Positions 1-31,900 of a DNA stretch of 55,527 bases are shown here, one piece after another. This DNA comes from a virus (taxonomy: Duplodnaviria > Caudoviricetes). The notes below the pieces were generated by a model. It was not told the DNA's origin. It made no database searches and was given only the letters and a program-made list of their open reading frames with translations. The stretch spans positions 1-55,527 of the IMG/VR virus record IMGVR_UViG_3300006929_000018, one strand, 5' to 3'. The stretch's first letter is position 1; every line of letters begins with the position of its first letter. The translations under genes were made by a program, and so were the position numbers.

Positions 1-31
1 CTAATAACTATTAACTATAAAATATACTATT

Positions 32-151
32 ATGAAAAATCTATCGCTCAACATTCTTGTAATCTTATTACTTCCAATAACCGTTCCATTCATACTATTA
101 ACTAACTATGATAACGTATGGGGAGAAGCAATAAAACAAATAAAGGGATAA
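32..151 (+). CDS. small hydrophobic early peptide (39 aa)
   Basis: Manual translation MKNLSLNILVILLLPITVPFILLTNYDNVWGEAIKQIKG. AT-rich leader; followed by a T-tract. Confidence 0.5.
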   Translation: MKNLSLNILVILLLPITVPFILLTNYDNVWGEAIKQIKG

Positions 152-191
152 TCTCCTTTTTTACCTACGAATAGTCGTGCCTCCTTTCGGT

Positions 192-227
192 TCACATACT
201 TCGTATGCTCATTTTAATTTTATATAG
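192..227 (+). promoter_or_regulatory. putative early promoter P1 (hairpin + TATA motif)
   Basis: CATAC-TTC-GTATG at 195-207 (template C-GAA-G loop). TTTAATTTTA-TATA-G with TATA at 223-226, 22 nt from the loop centre. Confidence 0.55.
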
Positions 228-365
228 GTAATAATAACTGTTAGAGTATACACGAAAGTGCTTCGCATGCTAACTTACCTTTACCACAGGACATATTTAT
301 CTAAACTTACGAGCACACACACAACCTAACTTAGGTGCTTCAAGTAAAGAAAATGTCCTTTTTTT
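227..365 (+). ncRNA. candidate structured small RNA 1
   Basis: GGTAA/TTACC (227-231/275-279) and GTTAG/CTAAC (240-244/270-274). Long hairpin closed by AGGACAT/ATGTCCT (288-294/353-359) with ACTT/AAGT and GAGCAC/GTGCTT, then a T-run. No credible ORF. Confidence 0.45.
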
Positions 366-370
366 GCTTA

Positions 371-408
371 CGAAACGACTGCGTCTTTCGGTGTTATATT
401 ACATATAA
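371..408 (+). promoter_or_regulatory. putative early promoter P2
   Basis: CGAAA-c-GAC-TGC-GTC-TTTCG (template C-GCA-G loop). TTATATTACA-TATA-A with TATA at 404-407, spacing 23. Confidence 0.55.
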
Positions 409-430
409 CTATTAATCAATATATATTATT

Positions 431-502
431 ATGAAATATTACCAATCAGTTCAAAACTTTATCGTTAAAGTATACAATACATTGTATGTATATTATAACT
501 AA
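431..502 (+). CDS. possible 23-aa micro-ORF
   Basis: MKYYQSVQNFIVKVYNTLYVYYN directly after P2. Leader (TATTATG) resembles that of the ORF at 32. Confidence 0.35.
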   Translation: MKYYQSVQNFIVKVYNTLYVYYN

Positions 503-524
503 TTATTAACCTAAATTAAATATC

Positions 525-749
525 ATGTCAATACTTGGAATCGCATTCTTCACCGCTATAGGTTATTTTATTATAGTCTATAAATTATTAGGTAGAAAGA
601 AATTAGTTAAAACACAGTTACTGTGGGATATACTATTTACTATCGGTCTACCTATACTATTCATCGGTACATTCAGTGGACTAGCAACAGCTGTATTAGC
701 TGGAGTTATGTTCTCTGTATTCACATCATTACTACCAAAGGAGAGCTAG
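525..749 (+). CDS. small integral membrane protein
   Basis: 74 aa with 2-3 hydrophobic segments. Confidence 0.7.
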   Translation: MSILGIAFFTAIGYFIIVYKLLGRKKLVKTQLLWDILFTIGLPILFIGTFSGLATAVLAGVMFSVFTSLLPKES

Positions 750-760
750 ACTCTCTTTTT
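737..760 (+). terminator. intrinsic terminator
   Basis: GAGAG-CTAGA-CTCTC followed by TTTTT, overlapping the stop codon of 525-749. Confidence 0.65.
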
Positions 761-761
761 A

Positions 762-798
762 GAACTCACTTTGTTCGTTCAATTTATATTATCTATAG
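762..798 (+). promoter_or_regulatory. putative early promoter P3
   Basis: Template strand GAAC-GA-AC-AAA-GT-GA-GTTC (tandem GA mismatch, C-AAA-G loop). TTATATTATC-TATA-G with TATA at 794-797, spacing 23. Confidence 0.5.
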
Positions 799-960
799 AT
801 ATATGTGTGGCTAATAATACCAGAGTGATTAAGTAACTACGACTAAAACTCAAGCACAATATCCTTATAATATTATGGTTAATAATATATAGGTCGGAGC
901 AATATAATTCTAAATCACAAACCGTTCAGGTAGTTGATAATTATATTGTTCCTTCCTTTT
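798..960 (+). ncRNA. candidate structured small RNA 2
   Basis: Several stems, including the 14-bp GGAGCAATATAATT/AATTATATTGTTCC (896-909/939-952, one G-U), followed by TTCCTTTT. Confidence 0.4.
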
Positions 961-996
961 ACAACAAAATAAATGTATAACTTAAATTAAATAATT

Positions 997-1326
997 ATGA
1001 AACTAATTAGTATTCTGATAACAGCCGCGTTATTTATTAACGTAAATCACTATCAATCAAGACCTTACACTGACTGTATACCTGAAGCATGGTATGATGA
1101 CTTCAGCGACTTTGAGTATGAAAACAAAATAGATACAGTATTAATAGATACTGCATCTTCAGACACAACATTAATAGACACTACTCGCAATCCTTATCAC
1201 GATATAGATTGGGCAGCAGAGTTCGCTAAATTAGATGATAAATTAGATAGCATGGATATGAATATCAACGAATTAATTATCTATGAAATTGAAAACTATA
1301 ATGACACAATAAATAAAAATAAATAA
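997..1326 (+). CDS. acidic protein with N-terminal signal/TM segment
   Basis: Hydrophobic N-terminus, IDT repeats, Asp-rich. Confidence 0.65.
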   Translation: MKLISILITAALFINVNHYQSRPYTDCIPEAWYDDFSDFEYENKIDTVLIDTASSDTTLIDTTRNPYHDIDWAAEFAKLDDKLDSMDMNINELIIYEIENYNDTINKNK

Positions 1327-1328
1327 TT

Positions 1329-1523
1329 ATGAGCATAGATATAAGTATAAAGAAAATAGATACATATAATAAAATATTAGATGTTATAAACAGTAGTTCT
1401 ACAAAACATCATCAAGACGTAGCATATATAATGATAGAAAGATTCGGGAATTTATTCTTTGACGAATCACTTACAGAAATATTATTAGAAACAGCTAATA
1501 AAACATTTGGATATACAGATTAA
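1329..1523 (+). CDS. hypothetical protein
   Basis: 64-aa ORF tightly packed in the operon. Confidence 0.6.
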   Translation: MSIDISIKKIDTYNKILDVINSSSTKHHQDVAYIMIERFGNLFFDESLTEILLETANKTFGYTD

Positions 1524-1525
1524 CT

Positions 1526-1561
1526 AAGAACCCTTCGGGGTTCTTTTTTTGTTATATATAA
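1526..1561 (+). terminator. intrinsic terminator overlapping putative promoter P4
   Basis: AAGAACCC-TTCG-GGGTTCTT plus T-run. TTTTGTTATA-TATA-A with TATA at 1557-1560, 22 nt from the TTC centre. Confidence 0.75.
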
Positions 1562-1585
1562 GTATTAATTTAAAAATATAAAAAA

Positions 1586-1972
1586 ATGGCAAAAGCTAAA
1601 ACAGCAAAGAAAGCTACTAAAGTAGCAAAGACAGTAGAAGCAGAAACTACTAAAAACAAAGGACAATTAGTTCCTAACATCAAAATTACACCTCACACAT
1701 TTAAGAACGGGACAACTATTCTTAATATCAGTTGTAAATTACCAGACTTTATTGACTTCTTACAAAACAATAAAGTTGTAGGTAAAGACGGCAGCTCTTG
1801 GGTTAACATGAAGGGTTTACCATCTAGTTCTGGTGGATACACTGTTATACTAAATGACTACTTCCATGACGCACAACAACTTGCAGATGAAGTATTTGGT
1901 GCAGATGAACTTGACGTACAAGTTGAAGACTTTGAGTTAGAAAGTAGAAGACAAGAGAACAAAGTATCATAA
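1586..1972 (+). CDS. putative nucleic-acid-binding protein
   Basis: Lys/Ala-rich histone-like N-terminus, beta-rich core (DFIDFL...WVNM), acidic C-terminal region. Confidence 0.55.
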   Translation: MAKAKTAKKATKVAKTVEAETTKNKGQLVPNIKITPHTFKNGTTILNISCKLPDFIDFLQNNKVVGKDGSSWVNMKGLPSSSGGYTVILNDYFHDAQQLADEVFGADELDVQVEDFELESRRQENKVS

Positions 1973-1979
1973 TAATTAT

Positions 1980-2061
1980 AAAAGAGAGTATTATCGTTTA
2001 ACGAGCGTTACGTAGAAAATAGGATAAAGTCAACGCGCCTATCGGTTAACGCTCTCTTTTT
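1980..2061 (+). other. structured intergenic element ending in a U-tract
   Basis: AAAAGAGAG/CTCTCTTTT, GAGCGTTA/TAACGCTC, ATAGG/CCTAT. Confidence 0.5.
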
Positions 2062-2066
2062 GCTTT

Positions 2067-2102
2067 ACAAGTCTTTCAGACTTGTGTTTTTATTGCATAT
2101 AA
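2067..2102 (+). promoter_or_regulatory. putative early promoter P5
   Basis: ACAAGTCT-TTC-AGACTTGT (template GAA loop). TTTTATTGCA-TATA-A with TATA at 2098-2101, spacing 22. Confidence 0.55.
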
Positions 2103-2127
2103 CTTTTAACCCCTTAAATTTATATTT

Positions 2128-2493
2128 ATGAAAAACCAATTAGAACTAACTGATGATTACATCAAAAAATTGAAAACACTATTACGAATGAAAAAGATTA
2201 CTTCTTATGATGTAGCTCACGCTTCATTTAGAAAAGCAAATCAACACTGTATTATTAGCTCTACAGACAAAAGAACATTAACTATCACATTTATAAACGG
2301 TGATGTTAAGAAATTTCCTACAATTATATCCTTATTAAATGAAATTAAAATAATTAATAAATGGTATAAGTCTGCTAGAAGAAAGTATATCAAAAGATAT
2401 TATAAAGTAATAGGAAAATGGAATAACAGGCATAACAATAAAGCTCCTAAACAAGAGCAATTTAACGCCTTAATTGAAAAATATAATATATGA
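2128..2493 (+). CDS. basic hypothetical protein
   Basis: 121-aa Lys-rich ORF after P5. Confidence 0.65.
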   Translation: MKNQLELTDDYIKKLKTLLRMKKITSYDVAHASFRKANQHCIISSTDKRTLTITFINGDVKKFPTIISLLNEIKIINKWYKSARRKYIKRYYKVIGKWNNRHNNKAPKQEQFNALIEKYNI

Positions 2494-2666
2494 TTATTAC
2501 CGAAGAATTAAAACTTAAAGCAAACATAAGAACAAGGTGTGCTAGAATCATAGCCACCTTGAACTCTCCTTATGAACAACAAACAGTTAATCAACTTATT
2601 AAAGAAACTGAAAAATTAGTAAAATATTGTATGTATAACCAAATAAATAACGAAAATGGAAAATAA
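2490..2666 (+). CDS. hypothetical protein (58 aa)
   Basis: Manual translation MIITEELKLK...NENGK. ATGA overlap with the upstream stop; fills the gap. Confidence 0.55.
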   Translation: MIITEELKLKANIRTRCARIIATLNSPYEQQTVNQLIKETEKLVKYCMYNQINNENGK

Positions 2667-3048
2667 AACATCAGAAAACATAATAAAATACAAAGACGAA
2701 TTAACAGCTGAAACATTACAAGGTATTATTGACAACTTGCAAGCTCAAGTAGGCGAATTAACTACAGAAATTTTTAATAAAGAAAAAACATTACGAGACA
2801 TCAACAAACCAACTATAACACAAAAACAATTAGATACAATAAATGAAGCAATATCTAATTATACAGACAATGTGGAGTTTTCTGAACAAGACTTTGATGT
2901 AGAACTTTGTATGGAATACGATAATAGAATTGAAATAAGTAGCTTATGTTTTAATTCTTCTGGAGATATGTTTGATGATATAATGAGATATGTAGAAAAA
3001 GAATTTAGAGTTATACAAGAAGAAGAAACCTCTACTGATGAATCTTAA
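2656..3048 (+). CDS. coiled-coil acidic hypothetical protein
   Basis: 130-aa ORF. Confidence 0.7.
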   Translation: MENKTSENIIKYKDELTAETLQGIIDNLQAQVGELTTEIFNKEKTLRDINKPTITQKQLDTINEAISNYTDNVEFSEQDFDVELCMEYDNRIEISSLCFNSSGDMFDDIMRYVEKEFRVIQEEETSTDES

Positions 3049-3223
3049 TTACGAAGACTGGAGTAAGTCTACATATCAACATTGTGACGACCCTACAGAA
3101 CACGATGAAGAAGAGACAGACTTCACAGAAGATGATGTAGAATTAACCATGTGTTTAGATTACCTAGACGAACACAATATGATGGAAGACTTTTTAATAT
3201 GGGTAAATAAAAATTACAAATAA
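3038..3223 (+). CDS. small acidic protein
   Basis: 61 aa, very Asp/Glu-rich. Confidence 0.6.
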   Translation: MNLNYEDWSKSTYQHCDDPTEHDEEETDFTEDDVELTMCLDYLDEHNMMEDFLIWVNKNYK

Positions 3224-3224
3224 T

Positions 3225-4100
3225 ATGAAAACAACGGAACAAATTCTTAATGAAAACGGACTTAACTGGAATGTAACTAAAGAAAAACTAATGTATGCTG
3301 GTGAGTGTACTCCTAGCGCTAACAATGGATTACATGACACTGATTACTACGGTATAGTTCGTGAAGATACAGGTGAAGTATTTACTACTGTTAAAAAAGG
3401 ATATACTCCTACGCAAAACTCTAAAATTATAGACACTATGCAATCAATCGCAGGTAATAATGATTTAATAATTACTAAAGCTTTAGCGATAAATGGTGGT
3501 AGAAAAATATTAGTACAAATGCAAAAACCTGACAATACAGTATATATAGGTGGTCAAGAGACCAAACAATATGTATATGCTATCAACTCTCATGATGGGA
3601 CATCAGCTTTAAAGTTTGGGTTTATGAATCAAGTAGTATATTGTTCAAATCAATTTGCTTGGATGAGTAACAATGGACTTAAAGGATATGTTCATAAACA
3701 ATCTATCCAAGATAAAGTAACTAATTTACCAGAGATTCTTAACTTTGATGGACAAGAAGAAAGAATAGCTCAATTACACGAGATGAGTATGACGCCTATA
3801 GGACATAAAGAAATCACTGGATTACTAGATTATTTAACTGGTATAGACTCTACAGTCCCTAATTGGGCAGGAGATATAAGTACAAGAAAGAATAATATTA
3901 GAGGAGATTTATATATGTCTGTTACTAAAGAGACTAATAGAGTAGGAATGAATAAATGGGGGCTCTTTAACGGAGTAACTATGTATACATCTCATAGTAA
4001 ATCTATACCTAATAGAGAAAATGGCAGAGAAGAATCTGTTTATACTGGCTCAGGTCAGAAAATGAATGATAATGCATTTAGTTGGTTATCAAATAATTAA
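3225..4100 (+). CDS. DUF932/TIGR03299-like phage protein
   Basis: GLNWNV, VREDTG, YTPTQN, NSHDGT, VYCSNQ and WGLFNGVT motifs typical of the family. Confidence 0.8.
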   Translation: MKTTEQILNENGLNWNVTKEKLMYAGECTPSANNGLHDTDYYGIVREDTGEVFTTVKKGYTPTQNSKIIDTMQSIAGNNDLIITKALAINGGRKILVQMQKPDNTVYIGGQETKQYVYAINSHDGTSALKFGFMNQVVYCSNQFAWMSNNGLKGYVHKQSIQDKVTNLPEILNFDGQEERIAQLHEMSMTPIGHKEITGLLDYLTGIDSTVPNWAGDISTRKNNIRGDLYMSVTKETNRVGMNKWGLFNGVTMYTSHSKSIPNRENGREESVYTGSGQKMNDNAFSWLSNN

Positions 4101-4102
4101 TT

Positions 4103-4267
4103 ATGAAATGGTATTTAAAAATAATAATAACAAATACTAAATCTAAATACATGATAAGAACATATGGATATAGTATAATAGTATATAAAAAACTATTTCC
4201 GTATGTTTTTATTAAACATCGTGTATTTGAAGATTTAGATAAAGCAATTGAATATATTAATCAATAA
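4103..4267 (+). CDS. hypothetical protein (54 aa)
   Basis: Manual translation MKWYLKIII...EYINQ. Confidence 0.45.
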   Translation: MKWYLKIIITNTKSKYMIRTYGYSIIVYKKLFPYVFIKHRVFEDLDKAIEYINQ

Positions 4268-4274
4268 TAATACA

Positions 4275-4350
4275 GAGAGCTCATACCAAAGCAGTATTGG
4301 AAACATGAGCGCGCAAACATGGAACAATATACTCAGGTCACTGAGCTCTC
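4275..4350 (+). other. structured intergenic element
   Basis: GAGAGCTCA/TGAGCTCTC 9-bp closure, with alternative GCTCAT/ATGAGC and CTCAG/CTGAG stems. Confidence 0.5.
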
Positions 4351-4373
4351 CTTATTATTCTAAAAACAAAATT

Positions 4374-4766
4374 ATGGGAAGATACTATGATGGCGACATT
4401 GAAGGTAAATTTTGGTTTGCCGTTCAATCAAGCACCGCTCCAGCAAGGTTTGGAGGTAATGAATATGAGCCAAGCTATATTAACTATTATTTCGGAGAAG
4501 ACCAATTAGAAGAAGTAAAAGAAGAGTTAGATAGAATACACAAAAACATGATGGGAAATATAGAAAAATTAGATGATTTCTTTGCACAAACTAATGGATA
4601 TAATACACTAATGATTATAGATTGGTACAAGAAAATGTATAAAGAAACAATTAACGAAGAAGAAGTTAAAGATATGTTAGTTGAATACGCTGACTATCAA
4701 TTAGGTAATCAGATAGCTGAGTGTATAAAAGAAAATGGACAATGTAATATAAATTGTGAATTATGA
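4374..4766 (+). CDS. conserved-looking phage protein (MGRYYDGDIEGKFWF...)
   Basis: ATG at 4374 after an A-rich leader is preferred over the TTG at 4248. Confidence 0.7.
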   Translation: MGRYYDGDIEGKFWFAVQSSTAPARFGGNEYEPSYINYYFGEDQLEEVKEELDRIHKNMMGNIEKLDDFFAQTNGYNTLMIIDWYKKMYKETINEEEVKDMLVEYADYQLGNQIAECIKENGQCNINCEL

Positions 4767-5002
4767 CAAAATTAGTAGAAACACCAAAAAATCAACATGA
4801 AGCTGTCTTATGGCATCTTAATGAATACAGCACCATTACATCATGGGAAGCAATTAAAGAATATGGAGCTACAAGATTATCAGCTATCATATATAATTTG
4901 AGAGATGATGGATATATTATCACTACAAATATGAAAACTACTAAAAATAGATTTGGTAGAAATGTAAATTATTCAGAATATAAATGGGAACATATAATAT
5001 GA
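4763..5002 (+). CDS. winged helix-turn-helix protein (HTH_39-like)
   Basis: ITSWEAIKEYGATRLSAIIYNLRDDGYII signature. Confidence 0.75.
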   Translation: MTKLVETPKNQHEAVLWHLNEYSTITSWEAIKEYGATRLSAIIYNLRDDGYIITTNMKTTKNRFGRNVNYSEYKWEHII

Positions 5003-5250
5003 CAGCAAAAGAAGTTAGAACTTATTTAACAGAAACATATGGTGAATGTAAGCATGATGAATATGCTATGGCAGGCGCTATAAATCAAACACTACAGGAC
5101 ATGGACTATGACAATGGTTGGGACTTGTTTCATCTATTAGTAGAAAACACACCTATACCACATTTACATACACATAGTTATGGATTTCATACACAAAATG
5201 GTAGAGGTATCATAGAAAGAATACAAGCTTATTATTATGAGTTCTCCTAA
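4999..5250 (+). CDS. hypothetical protein
   Basis: ORF track 4984-5250; second Met (4999) preferred. Confidence 0.6.
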   Translation: MTAKEVRTYLTETYGECKHDEYAMAGAINQTLQDMDYDNGWDLFHLLVENTPIPHLHTHSYGFHTQNGRGIIERIQAYYYEFS

Positions 5251-5539
5251 AGAAATAATACATAATGAATATTGTGCAGGTAAATGCCCTAAGTGTGATA
5301 GTGACAACATTGAATACTTTGGTTCTGAGATGTATGATGAGCAATTAGTTTATAACTCACATTGTGAAGATTGTAACTTAGATTTTCATGAGTATTATGA
5401 TGTAAAATATGACAGTTCTTATGGTATAGAATATATAGAAGAATCTGAAGAAGAAACACAATTATCATGTTGTGGAGATGAAATGACAGGAATATTAGAA
5501 GACATCCAAATTTGTCCAACCTGTAAAGAACATCAATAA
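5237..5539 (+). CDS. zinc-ribbon protein
   Basis: CPKC, CEDC, CC and CPTC motifs. Confidence 0.65.
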   Translation: MSSPKEIIHNEYCAGKCPKCDSDNIEYFGSEMYDEQLVYNSHCEDCNLDFHEYYDVKYDSSYGIEYIEESEEETQLSCCGDEMTGILEDIQICPTCKEHQ

Positions 5540-5562
5540 TATTAATATTAAAAAAAATAATT

Positions 5563-5925
5563 ATGGGATTAGACCAGTATGCAAAAAGAAGAGCTCCAAT
5601 ACAAAAAGGAAAAGAAATAGCTTATTGGAGAAAGCACAATAGACTTCAGGGTTGGATGGAAGAACTTTGGAGAGAAAAAACAGGTAAAGAAGGAGTATTT
5701 AACTGTGAAGAAGTTATATTAGAGTTAATAGATATAACGAATTTAGAGAAAGCTATTCTCAATAAAGAACTACCTCAGTCAGAAGGATTTTTCTTTGGAA
5801 ATGACTCTTATAGTTGGGACGAAGAAGATATTCAAGAACAGATAAAAGATGATTTAAAATTCATAAAAGAAGCTAAGCAAGCAATTATGGAAGGAGATGA
5901 AGTTGTATATAGTTCTTGGTGGTAA
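5563..5925 (+). CDS. conserved phage protein (MGLD...YWRK...GFFFG type)
   Basis: MGLDQY, YWRKHN, GFFFG and YSSWW motifs. Confidence 0.7.
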   Translation: MGLDQYAKRRAPIQKGKEIAYWRKHNRLQGWMEELWREKTGKEGVFNCEEVILELIDITNLEKAILNKELPQSEGFFFGNDSYSWDEEDIQEQIKDDLKFIKEAKQAIMEGDEVVYSSWW

Positions 5926-6146
5926 TGAAAGAATTTAATTTAAACAGATTAATGATGTCTTGTTGTGTAAATATAGATGACGAGTATTATGAAGAACTTT
6001 ATGACTATTTAATAGAAATAGATGTAGATTTAAATACATTAAACATTGATGACTTGGTAGTTAATGGTGTTCAATTTCTTGATAAAGAAGATTGTGAAGA
6101 TTACTACATACTAAAAGAAACCGACAGTGGATGTTGGGTAATATAA
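5925..6146 (+). CDS. acidic hypothetical protein
   Basis: TAATG overlap with the upstream gene. Confidence 0.55.
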   Translation: MKEFNLNRLMMSCCVNIDDEYYEELYDYLIEIDVDLNTLNIDDLVVNGVQFLDKEDCEDYYILKETDSGCWVI

Positions 6147-6152
6147 TTATTT

Positions 6153-6185
6153 GGGGGTCTTTGACCCCCTTTTAATTTTTTATAG
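6153..6185 (+). terminator. intrinsic terminator ending the early region (possible P6-like element)
   Basis: GGGGGTC-TTT-GACCCCC + TTTT, followed by TTTAATTTTT-TATA-G (spacing 20). Confidence 0.75.
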
Positions 6186-6211
6186 TATATTTAACCTCTC
6201 AAAATTAAAAT

Positions 6212-7498
6212 ATGGAAGACAGAGAAATAGAACACATGTTGTTAGGTAAAATTATGCTTAATGATAAAATATTAGAAAAATATTCTGATACACTACACAT
6301 TGATTTGTTCCAATATCCTATAAGCAGAAAAATATTTTCTACTATGATAGAATTAAAAAACGAAGGCAAAAGTGTAGACTTAGTTACATTAAATACTGGG
6401 CTAGAAAATGAAACAGATTCTTTTTCTCCAGTATTAGCGGAATGTACGTCTAAAGGACACTCTTTAGCTAATGTAAGTTCTTGTATACAAACTTTAGAGA
6501 GTATATATCAGAAAAACAAACTAATGACAATATCTCAAAACATTAGTAACTCTGTTAAAAACAGACACAAATTACATAAAATTATAAGTTCTGTACAAAA
6601 TGAATTAGCTGAAATTAATACATCTAAAGTTATTGAATTAGATGATTTGTCGTTACAATTAAAAAACACATTATCAGATATAAATAATAGAATGTCAACA
6701 GACGGCTTGTTAGGTATAGCGACAGGTTTTGATAAAATAGATAAATTTACAGGGGGTTGGCAGGAAACCGACTTAGTTATTATCGGAGGAGCTTCTTCTA
6801 TGGGTAAAACTAGTTTTGCTCTTGCCATATTATTAAATGCTTGTAAGTATTCTAACACTCCGTCTGTGATATTTTCTTATGAAATGAGTAGTAATCAATT
6901 GTTAAAACGATTAATATCTATGGAATCTTCTGTAGAAAATAATTATATAACAAACGGAACACTTGGTAAAGATGAATATCTTAAAGTAAATCAAGCTATT
7001 GGTAAAATAGAAAAACTACCTATTAATATAGATGAATGTAATATTACTAATTTAAATTATTTGGTAAATAGAATTAAAAGTTATGTAAAGAAAAGAAGTA
7101 TAAAACTAGTATTAGTAGATTACTTACAATTAGTTACTTACACAACTAAAAATTCTACAAGAGAACAAGAGGTTAGTAAAGTAGCTAGAACATTAAAAAA
7201 TCTAGCAAAAGAACTTAGTATAACTATTATAGCTTTATCACAATTAAATCGTGGTGTTGGTATGCGTGCAATGGGTAAACCAACTTTATCAGATTTACGT
7301 GAATCTGGAGAAATAGAACAAGCTTCCGATATAGTTATATTAATACATAGGCCTGAATATTATGGTATAAAACATGATGATTTAGGTAATGACACTAAAG
7401 GTGTAGCTAATATTATATTTGCTAAAGGTAGAAATATTGGCGTAGGAGAAATACCTTTAAAATTTATTAGTAAATTAACTAAATTTGAAAACGCATGA
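6212..7498 (+). CDS. dnaB: replicative DNA helicase, DnaB family
   Basis: TGFDKID, Walker A GASSMGKT, SYEM, VDYLQL, LSQLNR, LSDLRESGEIEQ, AKGRN. Confidence 0.95.
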   Translation: MEDREIEHMLLGKIMLNDKILEKYSDTLHIDLFQYPISRKIFSTMIELKNEGKSVDLVTLNTGLENETDSFSPVLAECTSKGHSLANVSSCIQTLESIYQKNKLMTISQNISNSVKNRHKLHKIISSVQNELAEINTSKVIELDDLSLQLKNTLSDINNRMSTDGLLGIATGFDKIDKFTGGWQETDLVIIGGASSMGKTSFALAILLNACKYSNTPSVIFSYEMSSNQLLKRLISMESSVENNYITNGTLGKDEYLKVNQAIGKIEKLPINIDECNITNLNYLVNRIKSYVKKRSIKLVLVDYLQLVTYTTKNSTREQEVSKVARTLKNLAKELSITIIALSQLNRGVGMRAMGKPTLSDLRESGEIEQASDIVILIHRPEYYGIKHDDLGNDTKGVANIIFAKGRNIGVGEIPLKFISKLTKFENA

Positions 7499-7647
7499 CG
7501 TTACCAGCAAAAATTATAATTACAACAACGATTTTTATATTCATGATATATATATCTATACAAATATTAGGGTATATATGTCTAGCTGTTATATCATATT
7601 ACGGGATAAAACATTTTATTAACAAAGTTTTGTCATTAAAAAAATAA
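7495..7647 (+). CDS. small membrane protein (50 aa)
   Basis: Manual translation, hydrophobic. ATGA overlap with the dnaB stop. Confidence 0.5.
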   Translation: MTLPAKIIITTTIFIFMIYISIQILGYICLAVISYYGIKHFINKVLSLKK

Positions 7648-7659
7648 TGTTTATTTTTG
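7629..7659 (+). promoter_or_regulatory. Bacteroidota primary-sigma promoter
   Basis: TTTG (7629-7632) - 19 nt - TATTTTTG (7652-7659), matching the -33/-7 consensus. Confidence 0.65.
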
Positions 7660-7689
7660 TCAATCACTTAAATAAATAAGTGATGTAAT

Positions 7690-7944
7690 ATGGGAGAAAA
7701 AAAATCACGTTTATCACAAATCATTGATGAAATTTCACATGACTTAAGTGTGGATAAAAGTACAGTACGTAGTGTGCTTACTTTATTATTCAAGGAAATA
7801 GCAATAACACTTATCTTAAAAGGTAAGCCAGTGTTGATTAGAAGATTTGTTAAATTCGTTATAGCTTTACGAGGAATTAACAAAATAAGAAAAGATATAA
7901 ATAATGTAAATAAAGAAGAAAATGAACTTAAGAGAACTGACTAA
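7690..7944 (+). CDS. HU/IHF-like DNA-binding protein
   Basis: Two N-terminal helices then GKPVLIRRFVKF, like the HU G..V.I.GFG.F pattern. Confidence 0.65.
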   Translation: MGEKKSRLSQIIDEISHDLSVDKSTVRSVLTLLFKEIAITLILKGKPVLIRRFVKFVIALRGINKIRKDINNVNKEENELKRTD

Positions 7945-8383
7945 AGAACTACCATATAAATGGAGAGTTCAATCAGCTAGGTATGGTAAAGCTGCTTGTG
8001 TAGCTTACATAGACGCTAGAGACGCTCAAGACTTATTAGATGAGGTTGTAGGACCTAGTAAATGGTCTACAGAATACTACGAATCATGTGGATTATTGAT
8101 GTGTCGTGTTGGTATACACACAGAACATGGTTGGGTATGGAAATCAGATACTGGTTCCGAATCTAATGTAGAAAAACAAAAGGGACATGCATCAGACGCA
8201 TTTAAACGTGCGTGTGTATCGTGGGGTATAGGTAGATTTTTATATAGACTACCAATACAAACCCTTAAAACTAAGGAATATAAAGGTAAAGAATATCCTT
8301 ATGCACCAGAAAAAGATAAGATTATCTTTGATGGCGAAACTTTAACAAAATATATAAACTGGAAAATTAAAAACAATAAATAA
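7922..8383 (+). CDS. Rad52/22-like (Sak) single-strand annealing protein
   Basis: WRVQ, YIDAR, KGHASDAFKRA..WGIGRFLY. Confidence 0.85.
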   Translation: MNLRELTKELPYKWRVQSARYGKAACVAYIDARDAQDLLDEVVGPSKWSTEYYESCGLLMCRVGIHTEHGWVWKSDTGSESNVEKQKGHASDAFKRACVSWGIGRFLYRLPIQTLKTKEYKGKEYPYAPEKDKIIFDGETLTKYINWKIKNNK

Positions 8384-25953: not shown

Positions 25954-28900
25954 TTATCTTATTATTGGTGATTCTTTTTCAGAACTACCACCATATATAA
26001 CTTTTCTAACTTCCTTATGTGTTTGACCAAATGGAGCTACTTCGTACTTTAATTCTGTTTCCCATTTTGGCGTTCCTTTCTCTGCTAGATAAGAATCTCT
26101 TTTTTGAGTTTCTCCACTTATAGCGTAATCTACAGTATTACCTATATTTTGAGCTGTTCCGAAAGACGTAGGTATTATTGTATAATTTATAAATCTGTCT
26201 ACATCCGTCATTACATTAATATCTTTATTTAACTTTTTTAAATGTCTTAAAACTATATCATCTTCACCATCATCGTCTAAAGCTAATATTAATAAAGAAA
26301 CTACACCAGCTAATCCTATACCCCTTATATAAGCTCCCATTTCTTTTTGTTGGTCCTCTCCAAGTTTGTCATATTCTTCTTTAAATGTAGCCATAGATAT
26401 ATCTCCATTAGTAAACCTACTCCATAAAGAAGATACATAACCACCAGCTGTTGTATAACTACCAGATTGAACTTCACCAAATCTATCTATATCACGCTGT
26501 TGGAATCTATCTCCCACCAATGTAAAATACCATTTTTTAAATTGTAAAGCAGCTCTACCTAAAGCGTAAGTACCCAACATTCTTCCGTCTAAAGCAGTGT
26601 ATCCCTCACCATGTAATGTAGATATTTTGTGATTTATCTGTCTAACTCTTTCTTGTGTAATTTCTCCTGAGCTATATTCTTCTTCTGTTAACATTCCCAA
26701 GAAAGCAGCTCCTTGTATATAATTTTCTGATTTATCCATAAAGAAAAACGACAATCTTTCTATCTTACCAAAAGCTCCTTTTTTATTATCTAAATGAACA
26801 AAATCACTAAAGCTATATTCTACTATTCTATGCTTTTTTAATATCTCTTGAGAATAGTTCCAATCTTGAAAATATCTTTTTTCTCCAACAACTAATTGTT
26901 TACCACCACGTTTACGGTACTCTTGATATTTACCAGCTAATATATTACCTACCGCGACCAACGGATTAAAACCTAAATATCTTAATGTAGTTAATCTAAC
27001 TAACCAATCTAATATCTTTTCTGCAGTATTAAGTTTTGGTCTTTTCTTTTCTAAGAAAGACTCTTTCCACCATCTTGTTAAATATTCGGCTGCATTTTTA
27101 TTACCATTTTCTTTATTAAACTGTATAATTGAATCTACTAACACCGACATGTTTTTCATTCCTACAAATGGATTTTCTTTTAGATTTATAGCATTACCAT
27201 AGTTATCTCTTTGTACGTCTCCATACTTAAATAAAGTACCTCTAATAAATTCTAATAGAGCTCCATTTAAATCCATAGACATGTGTTCAAATTCTGTAGC
27301 TTGTCTTCTTCTGTATTCTTCTATTAAAGCCTTGTCTGCTTCTGTAAGTTTGTCAGGAGATATTCCTTCTGCCATTTTTGATATAGCGTCACCGTCATTT
27401 AATAAGGCGTCTATTTCTGCGTCAGTTAAAACTATTTTACTACCGTCTTCATTTATACCCTGTTGTTTTAATTTCGTAGCTCTACGTTTCAGTTTTTCTA
27501 ATATAGCAGCGTTTGCTATTCTTTCTTTTGCTGTACCAGCACTTTTTAAGTATGTTCTTATGCTACTTAAAGACATTAGAACTTCTGTTCCGTTTATATC
27601 ATGATATAATTTAACATTTTCTACATTCATGTTTTTACCCATTCTCATATCATATAATCCAAATAATCCTTCTTTGCTAAACATTTCTAAATCACCCATC
27701 TGTATATTTTTTACAGCGTCTATTCTTTCTTGCCTTATAATGTTTCCAAACTTATCGTTCATTTCTCTATACAAATTCCAATAATCGTACTCTTCTTTAG
27801 TAATCTCACTTTTTTTATTTTTCATTTCTTCTGCAGAAATTAAAGTTATTCTACCTCCTTTTTCTCTATTGGTTATGTTACCATATAAAGTTTCATATCT
27901 TTCTGTCATATTCATTTGACCCTTTATCTTCTCTATAAGACCAATACCTTTAAGTTTAGATTCTATAAGTTTATCATGAGCTGCGTTTATTTCATTCGTA
28001 TACATTCTGTATCTAGATAAATAATTGTAGTAATTTTTTTCTATTTCATTTATCATATATTGTATCTCAGGTCTTCTAGATGTCATATTGTTAGACCCCA
28101 TCCATTTTCTTAACCATGATATATCTTCATTTTTAGAAGGCTTAACAAAATCATAGTTTTGTAAATCTGCTTTTTCTTGTAAATACTTTGTCTGTTTTTC
28201 AAATGCTCTTTGTGCTATTTCTTTTCTAATAATATGTTTAGCTCTATTAGTAGCAGAACTATCTAATCTATCTAACTTAGTCATAGCGTCATATAGATAT
28301 TCATCATCATGTTTTTGTAAAGATTCTAAATTTAATTTATCCGCTGTTAAATCTTCTGCTATTTCGTAATCTATTACATATTGAGAATACCTATCTTTTA
28401 ACCTTTTATAAATTAAACTATCTTTTTTGATAGAACCCATTGTAATACCCTTGTCTTCTACCCATTCTTTAAAAGATAATAAATCATTACTATCCATATA
28501 TTCTTTACCTTCACTTGTATATCTATTAAAAGCTTTTTTAGCTCTTTTAACTTCATCCGCAGCAGAAACATCCTGTATTTTATATATGTATATAGGTTTT
28601 TCTCCTTTTATAAAAGCTTTGTGATATTTATTTCCATTTTCTTTTATATCATCATAATTATCATATCCTTCACTACGAGCCCAAGAATCAAGATTTTTTA
28701 TGTCATCTATACTATTTCTTTTTATAGGAGGGCTAATACGTACCAGAGTATTTCCAGGTTTTATTAATTTAGTTATATCATTACCTGTATCATTATATGT
28801 ATTATAGCCATGACTAATAGTTTTTTTATTACCTGCTATTATAGCTTCTTCTTCTACAATATCTAGTGTCATTTTACCCACAACACCCTCTTCTTCTTTT

Positions 28901-31900
28901 ATTTGTTTACTTCTTTCTTCTAACTGTCTATCTATATTTATATCTCTTTGTTTTTCTTCCTGTATTCTTTCTTCTATTGATTCAATAAAACCTATAACAT
29001 CAACATTAGGACTTATTCTTTCTTGCATAGAATTTATAGTATTATCCATATATTGATTTATTTTACCTATAAACTTATCAGAAAATAAAGGAGATAAAGA
29101 ATCTTCTTTGAATCCAAATTCAAAAAACTTATATTCAATATTAAACATTAAAATTTGTTCTCTTTCTTTCAAATCATTAAATCCATTTCTCATTTGTTGT
29201 ATTTCTGATTCTGTAATAAATTCATTTAATAGTTGTTTATTTAAAACTACTTGTTCACGACCCTTACTATTTTTTACAATTTTCATAGATTTAAAAAACG
29301 TATTGTCTGGATTGGACTTCATAACCTTTTTTAATTCTTGTATTAATCTACTTTTAGTTAAATTAGGATATATAATATCTGTCATATTTTCTAACATTTT
29401 ATCAGATATTATTTTGTTGATTATTTTATTTTTTTGGTCCTTACTTTTGTATAGTAATCCTTTTTTATTATTATAAACTTCTTCCATTATGGACTGCATA
29501 TAAGGAGTGTATCTTATATCTGTTACAGAAGCTCTATTTAACATCGTTTCAAATAAACCTAAAGCGTGTGTCATAATAGGATTTTCAAAAAGTCCTCCCA
29601 TATTTCTTTTTTCGTCTCCTCTTATGTCATTAATCTTTTTTACTACACTCATCAATTCTAAAGGATTCTTTTCTATAGATTGATGTACTGTAAACGCTTT
29701 ACCTACAGGTTGAGCTACATCTTTATTAAATTGTTCTAAGTTATATATAAGACTTAATGTTTTGATTTGTTCTTTTGATAAAATAGCTTTTTCCCTCATT
29801 CCTTCTGCTTCAAATTCATCATATATAAATTCAACTGTCTCAGGAGATTGCTTGCTTAACCAATTAATAAAGTCTGAACTCTTTTTACCAGGTTTCTTTT
29901 TTGTTCCTAGTAATTGTTGTATAGTGGAATCAGAAGAAACAAATCTTTTACCATCTGTTGTTTTCTGCCATTGGAAATACTTTTGTACAATATCAGATGT
30001 GTATATATCTTTACATTCTTGTAAAGAATATCCTAATCTTCTAAGCATTACAAATCCTGCTACTGATTGTTCGTTTAGTCCTAGTCTTTCTGCATACTGC
30101 CATTTAGCGTTGTCTAATACTATATTAAGTAACTGAGCTAATCCAAACCAATTTCCTACTCCGTTTTCAGCGTTTCTATCGTCATAAAATTTATCCACTT
30201 TTCTTCCGTTAATATCTACTTCAAAACCTAGTTCTACGCCACTAACAGAAAATATATTCAAACTTCTTTGTAAAGCAGCTACAATACCTACAAGAGCTTT
30301 TGTAGGAACATTTTCTTTAAATGTTTTAGAATCTCCATGAGGAGTTAGTTGAGAGTCTGTTTTAGGTCTTTCTTTTCCAATTACCTTTTCTACATCTTTT
30401 TGAAAGTCTATATTTGCTGTAATTTCTTTTCTTACATCTTCTCTACTAACTAAGTCTACATATAAATCAAAAAATTCATTACTATCATTTCTCCAATCAT
30501 CAGATGATTTTATTTCATTTTTGTTGTATTTGAAGTTCATATGTACTGAGTCTCCATCTAAGTCAGCTCCCCAATATGCGGATACTTCGGCTGGTATGGT
30601 TATTTTAGACGTAGGACTTCCTTTTAATTGTCCATGAAATCCTTTTACTATAAATACACTTGTACTTACTTTACCATGCGAAGGTATTCTAGTTCCTAAA
30701 AATAAGTCACCTTCTTTAACTCCTTGTTTTTGTAAATAACCAGGCACGTAAGCTTCTGAAACTACAACCTTTTTACCATCTATAGTTCTTTCTTCAAAAG
30801 CTTTTAATCCCATCCCCAATGAAGACGATTGATAAGCTATACTCCCTTTTGTGTACATTTTAGTTCCTTTCTTAGCTACCCTACCATTAGCTATAGAATT
30901 GTACACAGAGTTCATTGCAGGGTATCTACCGTCTAGATTGCCAAATATTGAAGCAACTAACTGACCAAATACCGCTGGGTCAACAGAACCTTCAAATTTT
31001 TCCATTTCTTTAAATACATCTTTAGTTTTGGCGTCAGGAGAAGTAATCATACCTTCATCTAAATTTCTTTCTTTGTTAGCTTTTTCCATTACATTTTTAC
31101 GAAGCTCTAACATTCTATTTAGAATTTCAAAGTCTTTAGGACTATTCATATTGTTTGCTAAATTGTAAAACAATTGTGACGGAAAATATCTTTCTTCTTT
31201 TTGTTTGTCTAACTCTAATTGTATACCTAATCCCTTTCCACTTAAACCATTAAACTCCCTGTTTATATCATTTTCTTCACCTATCATAAACAGTTCATCC
31301 TGACTTTTTAATATATTGTCTAAATTCTCTTTATTTAAATTCCTAACATCATATATATATTTGCTGCCTTTTTTTCCGTTAATTCCATCAAACCAAAGTT
31401 TAGCTGAAGATTCAGAAGCAGCTATTACTAAGTGACCATGAGAAAACATATCAACATATTCTAAATTTGGTATAGTAGCAGCGGCTATACTTGTGTTTCT
31501 TTCTCTTAATATATTCGCTATGTTTTTATGTATTTCACTTGTAGCTTCCATATCAGGAGTTAACACTTGTACAGCAAATTTTAGATACGTAGTATTACCA
31601 TCTTCTCCTCTATAATTATATACAAACTTATATACACCTCCTACATCTTTAACTCCACCATATTTTTCTGTAATTATTTTTGCTTGTTGTGGTAATATGT
31701 ACCCCGCTGCATCATTCTCTATCCAAGCTTCCACTCCTTTAGGTATTTCGTTTTCTGTATATATATTACCTTCTTTATCTACATAATAATCTTTTGTAAT
31801 AACAGGTTCAAATGATGTTGTGTGGTCGTATGTTGTATGAGAAGCAATAGTACCAGCTAATCTTTTTATATAATCTACTTCATCCTTCGCTTGTTTGTGG

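What the first reader, a model, noticed from the sequence alone, without database searches (positions are those of the whole stretch)
227..365. Structured unit with its own promoter and terminator and no credible ORF (small RNA 1)
Seen: about 140 nt between P1 and a T-run. It has a 5' branched domain (GGTAA/TTACC, GTTAG/CTAAC, CAC-GAAA-GTG, TGC-TTC-GCA) and a long imperfect 3' hairpin with an unpaired ACACACACA stretch. Only a 20-codon ORF is possible. Inference: an immediate-early ncRNA, perhaps a decoy or antitoxin mimic against host defence. I do not recognise the family.
Basis: partly seen in the sequence, partly recalled or inferred. Interest (0 to 1): 0.7.

Follow-up and report, generated by a model that had tools for sequence, protein, structure and literature searches.

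The report
Conserved early hairpin RNA, crAss-like phage

Summary
Partly confirmed. The 3' hairpin (289-358) and T-run (359-365) are real. They recur in 24 sequence contexts on about 30 metagenomic or viral contigs. All 18 predicted pairs hold in 15 distinct variants, 2 of them with compensatory changes. 58 of 77 positions are invariant, including all internal-loop bases and ACACACAA in the apical loop. The fold beats shuffles (z -3.2). There is no Rfam match, no conserved ORF, and no credible copy in the bacterial genomes searched.

The "5' branched domain" (227-288) is a 62-nt insertion found only in this phage lineage, and its fold is no better than chance (z -1.06).

The phage is crAss-like, not N4-like. 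"P1" is one copy of a repeated cassette: a DNA hairpin with a 3-nt loop, then TTTCGG, then TTACATATA. This cassette precedes the first early units.

The unit is the first or second one of the rightward (early) arm. In 18 of 24 contexts a new promoter cassette follows the T-run. In 6 contexts the next gene follows directly, so there the hairpin is a 5' leader.

Best reading (0.45): an early, self-terminated hairpin RNA that acts through its invariant unpaired bases, probably by binding a protein. No expression data were available, and the decoy or antitoxin idea is untested.

The parts
168..190 (+). P1 cassette core, CGAA...TTTCGG. This is the variant with inner TAGTCGTGCCTCC, which has no clear inner stem.
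   Evidence: Regex and HMM hits (E 3.7e-4). The same core occurs in L018, L005 and L047.
195..207 (+). Second promoter-region hairpin, CATAC-TTC-GTATG (5 bp, 3-nt loop).
   Evidence: Read. It is conserved as ACATAC-TT[CT]-GTATGT in L003, L008, L017, L018, L030, L043 and L064.
218..226 (+). TTTTATATA, the local version of the core TTACATATA that in relatives directly abuts the hairpin.
   Evidence: 19 of 24 contexts have TTAC[AC]TAT[AT] next to GGACAT.
227..288 (+).
   Evidence: Absent from relatives. Present only in the window, L002/L014 and L036. Fold z -1.06. Not hit by the promoter HMM.
289..358 (+). Conserved long imperfect hairpin: 18 pairs in 3 helices, three internal loops, 19-nt apical loop.
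   Evidence: Alignment A1, RNAalifold, pair counts, fold z -3.19, CM R1 at 105.7 bits.
317..324 (+). Invariant unpaired ACACACAA in the apical loop.
   Evidence: Invariant columns A29-A36 in 15 of 15 variants.
359..365 (+). T-run (7 T here, 6 or 7 in relatives): the U-tail or terminator tract.
371..407 (+). P2 cassette for the next unit: CGAA, GAC-TGC-GTC hairpin, TTTCGG (386-391), TTACATATA (399-407).
   Evidence: E 4.7e-14, inflated by a self-copy in the model. Present after the T-run in 18 of 24 contexts and cleanly missing in 6.

Best explanation
The unit is a non-coding early transcription unit of a marine crAss-like phage. A promoter cassette starts transcription at or just before GGACAT. 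The cassette is a DNA hairpin with a 3-nt loop, then TTTCGG, then a TTACATATA-type core. The transcript folds into a 70-nt imperfect hairpin whose base is followed by 6-7 U, and most transcripts end there. This would give an RNA of about 77 nt with both ends protected. In this window the RNA may carry a dispensable 62-nt 5' extension. The RNA is made before any phage protein exists. Its stems tolerate compensatory change, while every unpaired base of the three internal loops and the ACACACAA of the apical loop is invariant. The most likely mode of action is therefore sequence-specific binding of a protein that is already present: a host factor, or a virion-delivered protein such as the RNA polymerase. 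That would make it a decoy, sponge or cofactor rather than an antisense regulator of phage mRNAs. Some read-through probably also occurs, so the same hairpin can be the 5' end of the first early mRNA. SHOWN: the structure, its conservation, the non-coding status, the position, and the repeated promoter-like cassette. INFERRED: transcription, the start site, the polymerase used, termination, action in trans, and the protein partner.
For: Phage type: Pfam CrAss_Ring_1 (82 bits) and crAss_MUZ (32.8 bits) pass their cut-offs. The 3951-aa ORF has ADLDGD. Its core matches 'putative RNA polymerase' of crAss-like Bacteroides phages: 32 records, best 27.7% identity, E 2e-6. Position: the longer contig of the same phage (L002) shows leftward late genes, about 330 nt of non-coding DNA, then the first promoter-like cassette, inside which the window begins. 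In 5 contexts (L010, L017, L030, L033, L058) the hairpin unit comes straight after that non-coding DNA. Hairpin: 15 distinct variants. 18 of 18 pairs are standard in all 270 cells, against 34-52% when partners are slid. 2 pairs show changes on both sides and 1 shows AU to GU. 0 of 500 shuffles reach the observed covariation score. 58 of 77 columns are invariant. Fold z is -2.6 to -3.3 in four variants. The G.U pairs and the T-run fit the + strand only. Identity to the window is 85-94% for the hairpin and 63-94% for six neighbouring genes in L003, L005, L008 and L010, with the hairpin's differences confined to the upper stem and apical loop. Non-coding: no conserved ORF. Promoter-like cassette: 13 of 18 distinct CGAA...TTTCGG cores have an inner stem of at least 3 bp on a 3-nt loop, against a mean of 8% in shuffles. 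There are four different stem sequences, and the cassette precedes early ORFs in the relatives. Stand-alone layout: a fresh cassette follows the T-run in 18 of 24 contexts. Not antisense: no complementarity beyond chance and no extra motif copies in the window. [quoted passage not shown]
Against: No 5' or 3' end of an RNA has been observed, so the start site, the polymerase and termination are all inferred. In 6 of 24 contexts (L008, L009, L010, L033, L058, L064) no cassette follows the T-run and the next gene starts about 35 nt later, so there the hairpin must be a leader that is read through. The covariation rests on three sequence lineages, hence few independent events. The measure 'pairs with a change on both sides' is reached by 425 of 500 shuffles. 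The clade is narrow: relatives whose DUF932 protein is 76% or more identical. Part of the invariance may reflect recency, since some neighbouring genes are as similar (ORF64 at 94% in L005, DUF932 at 87%). No partner protein, target or known RNA family was found. The window's own P1 core lacks a clear inner stem. The promoter reading leans on analogy with N4 and LUZ7, whose polymerase is unrelated.
Confidence: 0.45

Rival explanations
1. Cis-acting 5' leader element. The hairpin is the first part of the early mRNA and controls it. It could be a leaky or regulated terminator (attenuator), an RNase III-type processing site, a 5' stabiliser, or a put-like antitermination signal. Any short RNA is then a by-product.
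For: In 6 of 24 contexts the next gene follows the T-run with no promoter cassette. The cassette is lost cleanly in at least three hairpin lineages (L008/L064, L010/L033, L058), so it is dispensable. The base stem is only 6 bp with 3 G-C pairs, which fits partial read-through. The analogies are from my own knowledge, not from a call: T7 early RNase III sites and the HK022 put RNA.
Against: 18 of 24 contexts re-start with a full cassette right after the T-run. Invariant loop sequences are not needed for a stabiliser or a simple terminator. A U6-7 tract is kept in all 15 variants, which an antitermination element would not need.
Confidence: 0.27
2. DNA-level element. The inverted repeat works as DNA: as an extruded cruciform that helps the virion polymerase load on single-stranded DNA, as part of a replication origin, or as a packaging or end signal beside the conserved non-coding region.
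For: It lies within a few hundred bases of the conserved non-coding junction between the late and early arms. phi14:2 gp66 transcribes denatured DNA in vitro. Neighbouring promoter cassettes are themselves small DNA hairpins. 10 of the loci end within about 150 nt of the hairpin, although repeated cassettes would also break assemblies there.
Against: G.U pairs (AU to GU in 5 of 15 variants; further wobbles in the apical part of L003 and L017) would be A-C mismatches on the other strand. The T-run is on one side only. Three internal loops and a 19-nt apical loop make cruciform extrusion unlikely. The arm motifs are not repeated elsewhere in the genome: 16 matches against 12 expected, and 1 against 0.05 where the single match is the element itself.
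Confidence: 0.13
3. Ordinary terminator or insulator with no function of its own. The conservation reflects a young clade, and the promoter in front of it is incidental.
For: The clade is narrow, and the CM finds nothing in more distant relatives: 0 credible hits in 48 other loci. Some neighbouring genes are equally similar.
Against: Other terminators of the same region are short 5-9 bp hairpins, not 70-nt structures. The promoter-hairpin-T-run order is kept in 24 of 24 contexts while the flanks are shuffled, and leaders of 0, 62 or about 105 nt are tolerated. The changes that did occur in the stem are compensatory.
Confidence: 0.1
4. It encodes a micro-protein (the 20-codon ORF 352-414 or the GTG ORF 258-329).
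For: The ORFs exist.
Against: Frame, length (5 to more than 40 codons) and sequence are not kept among the 24 contexts. ORF 258-329 lies mostly in the insertion that relatives lack.
Confidence: 0.01

Closest known systems
Early long non-coding RNAs of the crAss-like Cellulophaga phage phi14:2 (g004-g005 and g005-g006 intergenic regions; bioRxiv 10.1101/2020.03.07.982082, passages read)
   Same: A crAss-like phage of a marine Bacteroidota host. Non-coding, rightward, near the start of the early arm, and present from the earliest time point. Function unknown.
   Different: No sequence or CM similarity: R1 finds nothing in phi14:2 1-8000. Those regions are several hundred nt long, against about 77 nt here. 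In phi14:2 no common early promoter motif was found, whereas here a repeated cassette is obvious.
Hairpin early promoters of N4-like phages (N4, LUZ7; passages of PMC4496689, PMC3715699 and PMC9163698)
   Same: A short DNA hairpin with a 3-nt loop, then a T-rich spacer and G. The N4 sequence reads GTTGC-TTC-GCAAC-TTAT-G and GAAGC-TCC-GCTTC-TTTT-GG (that these are P1 and P2 is my recall). Here it reads, for example, GTC-TTC-GAC-TTTC-GG. Both sit in front of the first early units of a phage that injects its own RNA polymerase.
   Different: The polymerase here is the two-barrel crAss type (DLDGD), not the T7-like N4 enzyme. An extra TTACATATA core lies 6-8 nt further on. The loop centre is not always the base N4 requires. 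The start site is unknown. The resemblance is one of working principle, not family membership.
Phage-encoded small RNAs that act without translation, such as RNA anti-CRISPRs and pseudo-ToxI antitoxin mimics (from my own knowledge, not from a call)
   Same: A short structured phage RNA that could neutralise a host protein faster than any phage protein could be made.
   Different: Those RNAs mimic CRISPR repeats or ToxI repeats. Here there is a single copy, no repeats, and no look-alike in 401 Flavobacteriaceae genomes beyond weak single hits. The pattern scan of one genome per 185,579 species found none either.
RNase III processing hairpins in the T7 early leader, and the phi29 pRNA encoded at the genome's left end (from my own knowledge, not from a call)
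   Same: An irregular hairpin with internal loops just downstream of the first early promoters. In phi29, an early non-coding RNA is encoded at the left end.
   Different: T7 sites have no U-tract and no own promoter-terminator pair. pRNA is about 170 nt with two interacting loops. No similarity was tested or found, and Rfam gave no match.

Membership tests
Any Rfam 15 family | Covariance-model match at or near the gathering score | tested here: not met
   0 matches at E up to 10 in 150-430. In 1-3000 the only match is elsewhere (891-961, E 0.74, 21.7 bits against 55.8 needed).
Intrinsic (rho-independent) terminator | A stable stem directly followed by a U-run on the transcribed strand | tested here: met
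   GGACAU/AUGUCC base stem plus 6-7 U in 15 of 15 variants. The simple scan does not list it, because that scan allows loops of 3-8 nt only. Termination efficiency was not measured.
N4-type virion-RNAP hairpin promoter | Recognised by a T7-like single-subunit virion RNA polymerase | tested here: not met
   The virion polymerase candidate is crAss-type, with a DLDGD motif and hits to crAss 'putative RNA polymerase'.
N4-type virion-RNAP hairpin promoter | A stem of 4-7 bp with a 3-nt loop upstream of the start | tested here: met
   13 of 18 distinct cores have at least 3 bp on a 3-nt loop, against 8% in shuffles. The window's own P1 core does not, but a second hairpin at 195-207 does.
N4-type virion-RNAP hairpin promoter | Start site 11 nt (N4) or 13-14 nt (LUZ7) downstream of the loop centre | not testable with these tools
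   No RNA ends are available. The GG of TTTCGG lies 9-12 nt from the loop centre, and the base after TTACATATA lies 26-29 nt from it (read).
Trans-acting antisense sRNA or type I antitoxin | Extended complementarity to a target mRNA, usually a neighbouring one | tested here: not met
   The longest antisense matches in the 55.5-kb window are 11-12 nt, A/T-rich, not near start codons, and none lies in 366-1000. The complement of the CA loop is not enriched: 15 matches against 10.2 expected. Host targets were not tested.
Type III antitoxin (ToxI-like) or CRISPR-repeat mimic | Tandem repeats, or similarity to a host repeat array | tested here: not met
   Single copy. There are 1-2 weak hits per genome in 82 of 401 Flavobacteriaceae genomes, about twice the roughly 40 expected at that threshold. 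The best (E 2.6e-4) lies in coding DNA.
Y RNA with Ro/TROVE protein | A TROVE-domain protein encoded nearby and a Y-RNA model match | tested here: not met
   No TROVE hit in the 17 ORFs scanned with Pfam (not every ORF of the window was scanned). No Rfam match. The lead came from crAss001's early TROVE gene.
Protein-coding micro-ORF | Frame and peptide conserved among relatives | tested here: not met
   Two frames, 5 to more than 40 codons, across 24 contexts.

The most novel reading that the evidence does not exclude
The repeated cassette (a DNA hairpin with a 3-nt loop, TTTCGG, TTACATATA) is the long-sought early promoter of a crAss-type virion RNA polymerase, which would be convergent with N4. 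The invariant hairpin is then that polymerase's first product: a translation-independent RNA made within moments of DNA entry. It would neutralise a host defence or RNA-binding protein, or titrate the virion polymerase itself in the way 6S RNA titrates host polymerase, and so time the early programme.
Probability: 0.15. Interest if true: 0.8.

Novelty: new member of a known kind. Interest (0 to 1): 0.5.

Why it matters
crAss-like phages are among the most abundant phages known. How their injected RNA polymerase finds early genes is open: the phi14:2 study found no common early motif. What their abundant early non-coding RNAs do is also unknown. This clade offers a compact RNA of about 77 nt with clear invariant and covarying positions. 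It also offers a sharply defined, modular promoter-like cassette next to it. Both are small enough for direct in vitro tests with a recombinant virion polymerase, and for pull-downs. My five literature searches found no description of either in the library searched.

Tried and rejected
N4-like reading. I first took the 3951-aa ORF for an N4-type vRNAP. PHROGs, Pfam and PDB sequence searches of the giant ORF itself gave nothing.

Near relatives in named phages: none by blastn of window 1-3000.

Insertion 227-288 as a degenerate duplicate of the promoter cassette. By eye it has ACACGAA, a TGC-TTC-GCA hairpin and TTTACCACA at the right spacing. The cassette HMM does not hit it at E up to 10, so this is not supported. 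Insertion as a mobile mini-element: the only other copy in the viral collection is on the same phage's contig.

Upper hairpin as an RNA copy of the promoter hairpin (CTTACGA / CTTTCGG resemblance): the cassette HMM does not hit 289-358 either.

Pairing of the CA loop with the invariant ATATGTGTGG of the next non-coding unit: only 6 bp, so no weight.

More distant homologues. CM R1 found nothing credible in 48 other loci; the two hits at E 0.26 are on the wrong strand, downstream of DUF932. It gave 5 weak hits in 151 Flavobacteriaceae genomes, best per-genome E 0.009, which is the chance level for 151 genomes. The genome-collection pattern scan gave 7 chance hits, none with the closing stem. 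In the metagenome scan, 18 of 44 loci were chance hits without the closing stem; L026 was inspected and is unrelated.

Expression: no RNA holder was listed for window 1-1500.

phi14:2 intergenic regions: no tRNA and only sub-threshold Rfam hits.

Slip: I meant to leave the window out of the cassette model, but L001, a copy of window 1-2500, contributed its P2. The P2 E-value is therefore inflated. The P1 hit is not affected.

Supplementary tables of the phi14:2 preprint (transcript coordinates, primer-extension sites) were not available and may bear on the comparison.

Full report
WHAT THE WINDOW IS. The window is a whole IMG/VR virus record of 55,527 bases, rated 82% complete, with 30% G+C and no tRNA. 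Small rightward ORFs fill 1-6,000. Rightward replication genes follow: DnaB, Rad52-like, a PDDEXK protein, a spore-photoproduct-lyase-like protein and a Dam-type methylase. From 14,100 onward all large ORFs run leftward, including one of 3951 aa. I first read that ORF as an N4-type virion polymerase. Pfam finds CrAss_Ring_1 (82.1 bits) and crAss_MUZ (32.8 bits) above their cut-offs, and CrAss_Ring_2 just below. The giant ORF carries ADLDGD. A 501-residue piece around that motif hits 'putative RNA polymerase' of Bacteroides crAss-like phages in 32 records, best 27.7% identity, E 2e-6. No start codon in 1-3,000 has a Shine-Dalgarno sequence in front of it (read), which fits a Bacteroidota host.

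WHERE THE UNIT LIES. A longer contig of the same phage (L002, 99.9% identical over window 1-1000) continues to the left of window position 1. It shows leftward late-type genes, a terminator, about 330 nt of A/T-rich non-coding DNA, and then a promoter-like cassette inside which the window begins. The finding therefore lies in the second unit of the rightward arm. In five other contexts (L010, L017, L030, L033, L058) the same unit comes straight after that non-coding DNA and is the first unit. By analogy with phi14:2 and crAss001, this arm is the early one, transcribed by the injected polymerase (passages). That is an inference from layout, not a measurement.

CHECKING THE OBSERVATION. The 3' hairpin and T-run are as described. 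The 77 nt from 289 to 365 fold into one hairpin at -15.6 kcal/mol, z -3.19, with 2 of 200 shuffles as good. The 5' 'branched domain' does not hold up. Its 62 nt fold at z -1.06, with 27 of 200 shuffles as good. It is also simply absent from relatives.

I used the DUF932 gene 3 kb downstream as an anchor and then DNA patterns. This recovered the hairpin in 24 distinct sequence contexts on about 30 contigs. In 19 of the 24 contexts, a TTAC[AC]TAT[AT] motif directly abuts GGACAT. The window's lineage (window, L002/L014, L036) has 62 extra nt there. Two contexts (L022, L049) have an unrelated leader of 105 nt. Two truncated contexts (L053, L061) show the end of the same leader. The hairpin is thus the conserved entity, and the sequence in front of it is variable and dispensable.

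THE HAIRPIN. Fifteen distinct variants align with 58 of 77 columns invariant. RNAalifold predicts 18 pairs in three helices. All 270 pair cells are standard pairs, against 34-52% when the 3' partners are slid by 1-3 columns. Two pairs of the upper helix change on both sides (G-C to A-U; C-G to G-C) and one changes from A-U to G-U. None of 500 column shuffles reaches the observed covariation score or the percentage paired.

There are caveats. Thirteen pairs never vary. The variation comes from three sequence lineages. The count of pairs with double changes is matched by 425 of 500 shuffles.

The pattern is nevertheless telling. Where the stem varies, it varies in a compensatory way. The unpaired bases of all three internal loops and ACACACAA in the apical loop never vary, while the rest of the apical loop varies freely, with indels. 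G.U pairs and the one-sided T-run (6 or 7 T in every variant) point to the + strand as the working strand, and hence to RNA.

Against the window, the hairpin is 85-94% identical in L003, L005, L008 and L010, and six neighbouring genes are 63-94% identical. The hairpin is at the top of the local range but not far outside it. The clade is narrow, and recency accounts for part of the invariance.

CODING IS EXCLUDED. The ATG in the 3' arm opens ORFs of 5 to more than 40 codons in two frames, depending on T-run length and on what follows. The GTG ORF 258-329 lies mostly in the insertion.

THE PROMOTER-LIKE CASSETTE. 'P1' is not a sigma-70 match. It is a copy of a cassette that follows the T-run of the preceding terminator. 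The cassette runs CGAA, two or three bases, a short stem with a 3-nt loop, TTTCGG, 6-8 bases, TTACATATA. It is then followed either by an mRNA leader of the form A[CG]TATTAA[CT]CAAT and an ATG, or by the hairpin.

Among 18 distinct cores, 13 have an inner Watson-Crick stem of at least 3 bp on a 3-nt loop, against a mean of 8% and a maximum of 28% in shuffles. The stems come in four different sequences (GAC/GTC, GTC/GAC, GGAC/GTCC, GAACC/GGTTC), so the stem covaries. In one subtype, which includes the window, a second hairpin (ACATAC-TT[CT]-GTATGT) lies between TTTCGG and the core.

An HMM of the cassette finds only two copies in the 55.5-kb window: 162-191 (E 3.7e-4) and 365-409. Later early genes carry only the core after their terminator's T-run, for example at 1546-1575 and 2087-2110 (read; weak HMM hits). 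More distant relatives, with DUF932 54-63% identical, lack the CGAA...TTTCGG part altogether: 0 hits in 43 loci (L081-L123; L079 also had none, and L080 is a contig already known to carry the cassette). They have T-run + TTTACTATTATTA + the same leader.

My reading is that the A/T-rich core is the general early promoter element of this group and the hairpin cassette is a clade-specific addition. The design recalls N4 and LUZ7 early promoters, which have a stem of at least 4 bp, a 3-nt loop, and a start 11 or 13-14 nt from the loop centre (N4 sequence). The polymerase here is unrelated, however, so this is a resemblance in working principle only. In phi14:2, no common motif was found upstream of early transcripts. 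Whether transcription starts at the GG of TTTCGG or just after TTACATATA cannot be settled without RNA ends.

STAND-ALONE UNIT OR LEADER? In 18 of 24 contexts a complete new cassette starts 4-6 nt after the T-run, so promoter, hairpin and terminator form a unit of their own. In 6 contexts (L008, L009, L010, L033, L058, L064) the cassette is cleanly missing, and the usual mRNA leader and the next ATG follow the T-run. In those phages the downstream genes must be reached by read-through, or from a start I cannot see. The hairpin is then at least sometimes the 5' end of an mRNA. This keeps a cis-acting role seriously in play.

WHAT IT IS NOT.
- Known RNA family: no Rfam family matches.
- Copies in the window: the arm motifs and the complement of the CA loop are not enriched there.
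- Antisense target: none stands out.
- Bacterial genomes: the element was not found. The pattern scan gave 7 chance hits. CM R1 gave chance-level hits in 151 Flavobacteriaceae genomes. BLAST gave only single weak A/T-rich hits in 82 of 401 genomes, and the best of these lies in coding DNA.
- Distant relatives: the CM finds no homologue in the more distant relatives or in phi14:2 1-8000.
- TROVE protein: none appeared among the 17 ORFs scanned.

MOST LIKELY MECHANISM. I commit, at about 0.45, to the following. The RNA is a self-terminated early hairpin of about 77 nt with both ends held in or next to the base stem. It is made before any phage protein exists. It acts through its invariant unpaired bases by binding a protein that is already in the cell: a host factor, or a virion-delivered protein. 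Read-through makes the same hairpin the 5' end of the first early mRNA in some phages.

The rivals are a purely cis-acting leader element (0.27), a DNA-level element (0.13), an ordinary terminator (0.10) and a micro-protein (0.01).

NOVELTY. Phage small RNAs, and early non-coding RNAs in a crAss-like phage, are known kinds. This RNA has no described family. My five searches of the paper library turned up no description of it or of the cassette. I therefore rate it a new member of a known kind, of moderate interest. Its main value is that the RNA and the adjacent promoter-like cassette make the early transcription of crAss-like phages directly testable.

Noticed in passing
window 163-226 and 366-407; L003, L005, L018, L022, L047 and other loci: A modular promoter-like cassette (T-run, CGAA, covarying 3-5 bp stem with a 3-nt loop, TTTCGG, TTACATATA) precedes the first early units. 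It is gained or lost as a clean block of about 41 nt between relatives. It is a candidate early promoter for a crAss-type virion RNA polymerase.
   Followed up: partly
It has an invariant ATATGTGTGG that in L008 and L018 directly follows a TTACATAT core. It may be a second early non-coding RNA.
   Followed up: partly
window 891-961; L088 56-83 and 2491-2518: The long hairpin AGGTCGGAGC...GTTCCTTCCTTTT is an expanded version of a short terminator (AGGTCGGAGC-TAAC-GCTCCTTCCTTTTT) that is repeated in a distant relative. This part is not conserved in the closer relatives.
   Followed up: no
L002 2440-2776 (left of window position 1); L110 430-745: A conserved non-coding region lies between the late and early arms. 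A shared block (CGAAGTTATACAA...ATTGTCAAG) is kept even in a distant relative. Read on the other strand, it looks like TTGACA-N15-TATAAC. It could be a leftward promoter, an origin or an end region.
   Followed up: no
window 431-502; L010 about 2960-3030: A 23-codon micro-ORF after P2 (ending VKVYNxLYxYYN) is kept in L010 with a different N-terminal half. It comes just before the 74-aa two-helix membrane protein gene (525-749).
   Followed up: no
L022 and L049, the 105 nt between TTACATATA and the hairpin: An alternative leader inserted at the same point as the window's 62 nt. It contains TTGACA-N17-TATTCT.
   Followed up: no
L065 (phi14:2) 1806-1843: The highly transcribed intergenic region of phi14:2 contains a tRNA T-arm-like motif. 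It gives a weak partial tmRNA hit (11.7 bits, E 0.054, far below gathering), and ARAGORN finds no tRNA.
   Followed up: partly
window 25954-37809 (-): The 3951-aa virion polymerase candidate has a single D.D.D motif (ADLDGD at residue 2416) and one HExxH (HEGGH at residue 1092). The whole protein has no PHROGs, Pfam or PDB sequence match.
   Followed up: partly
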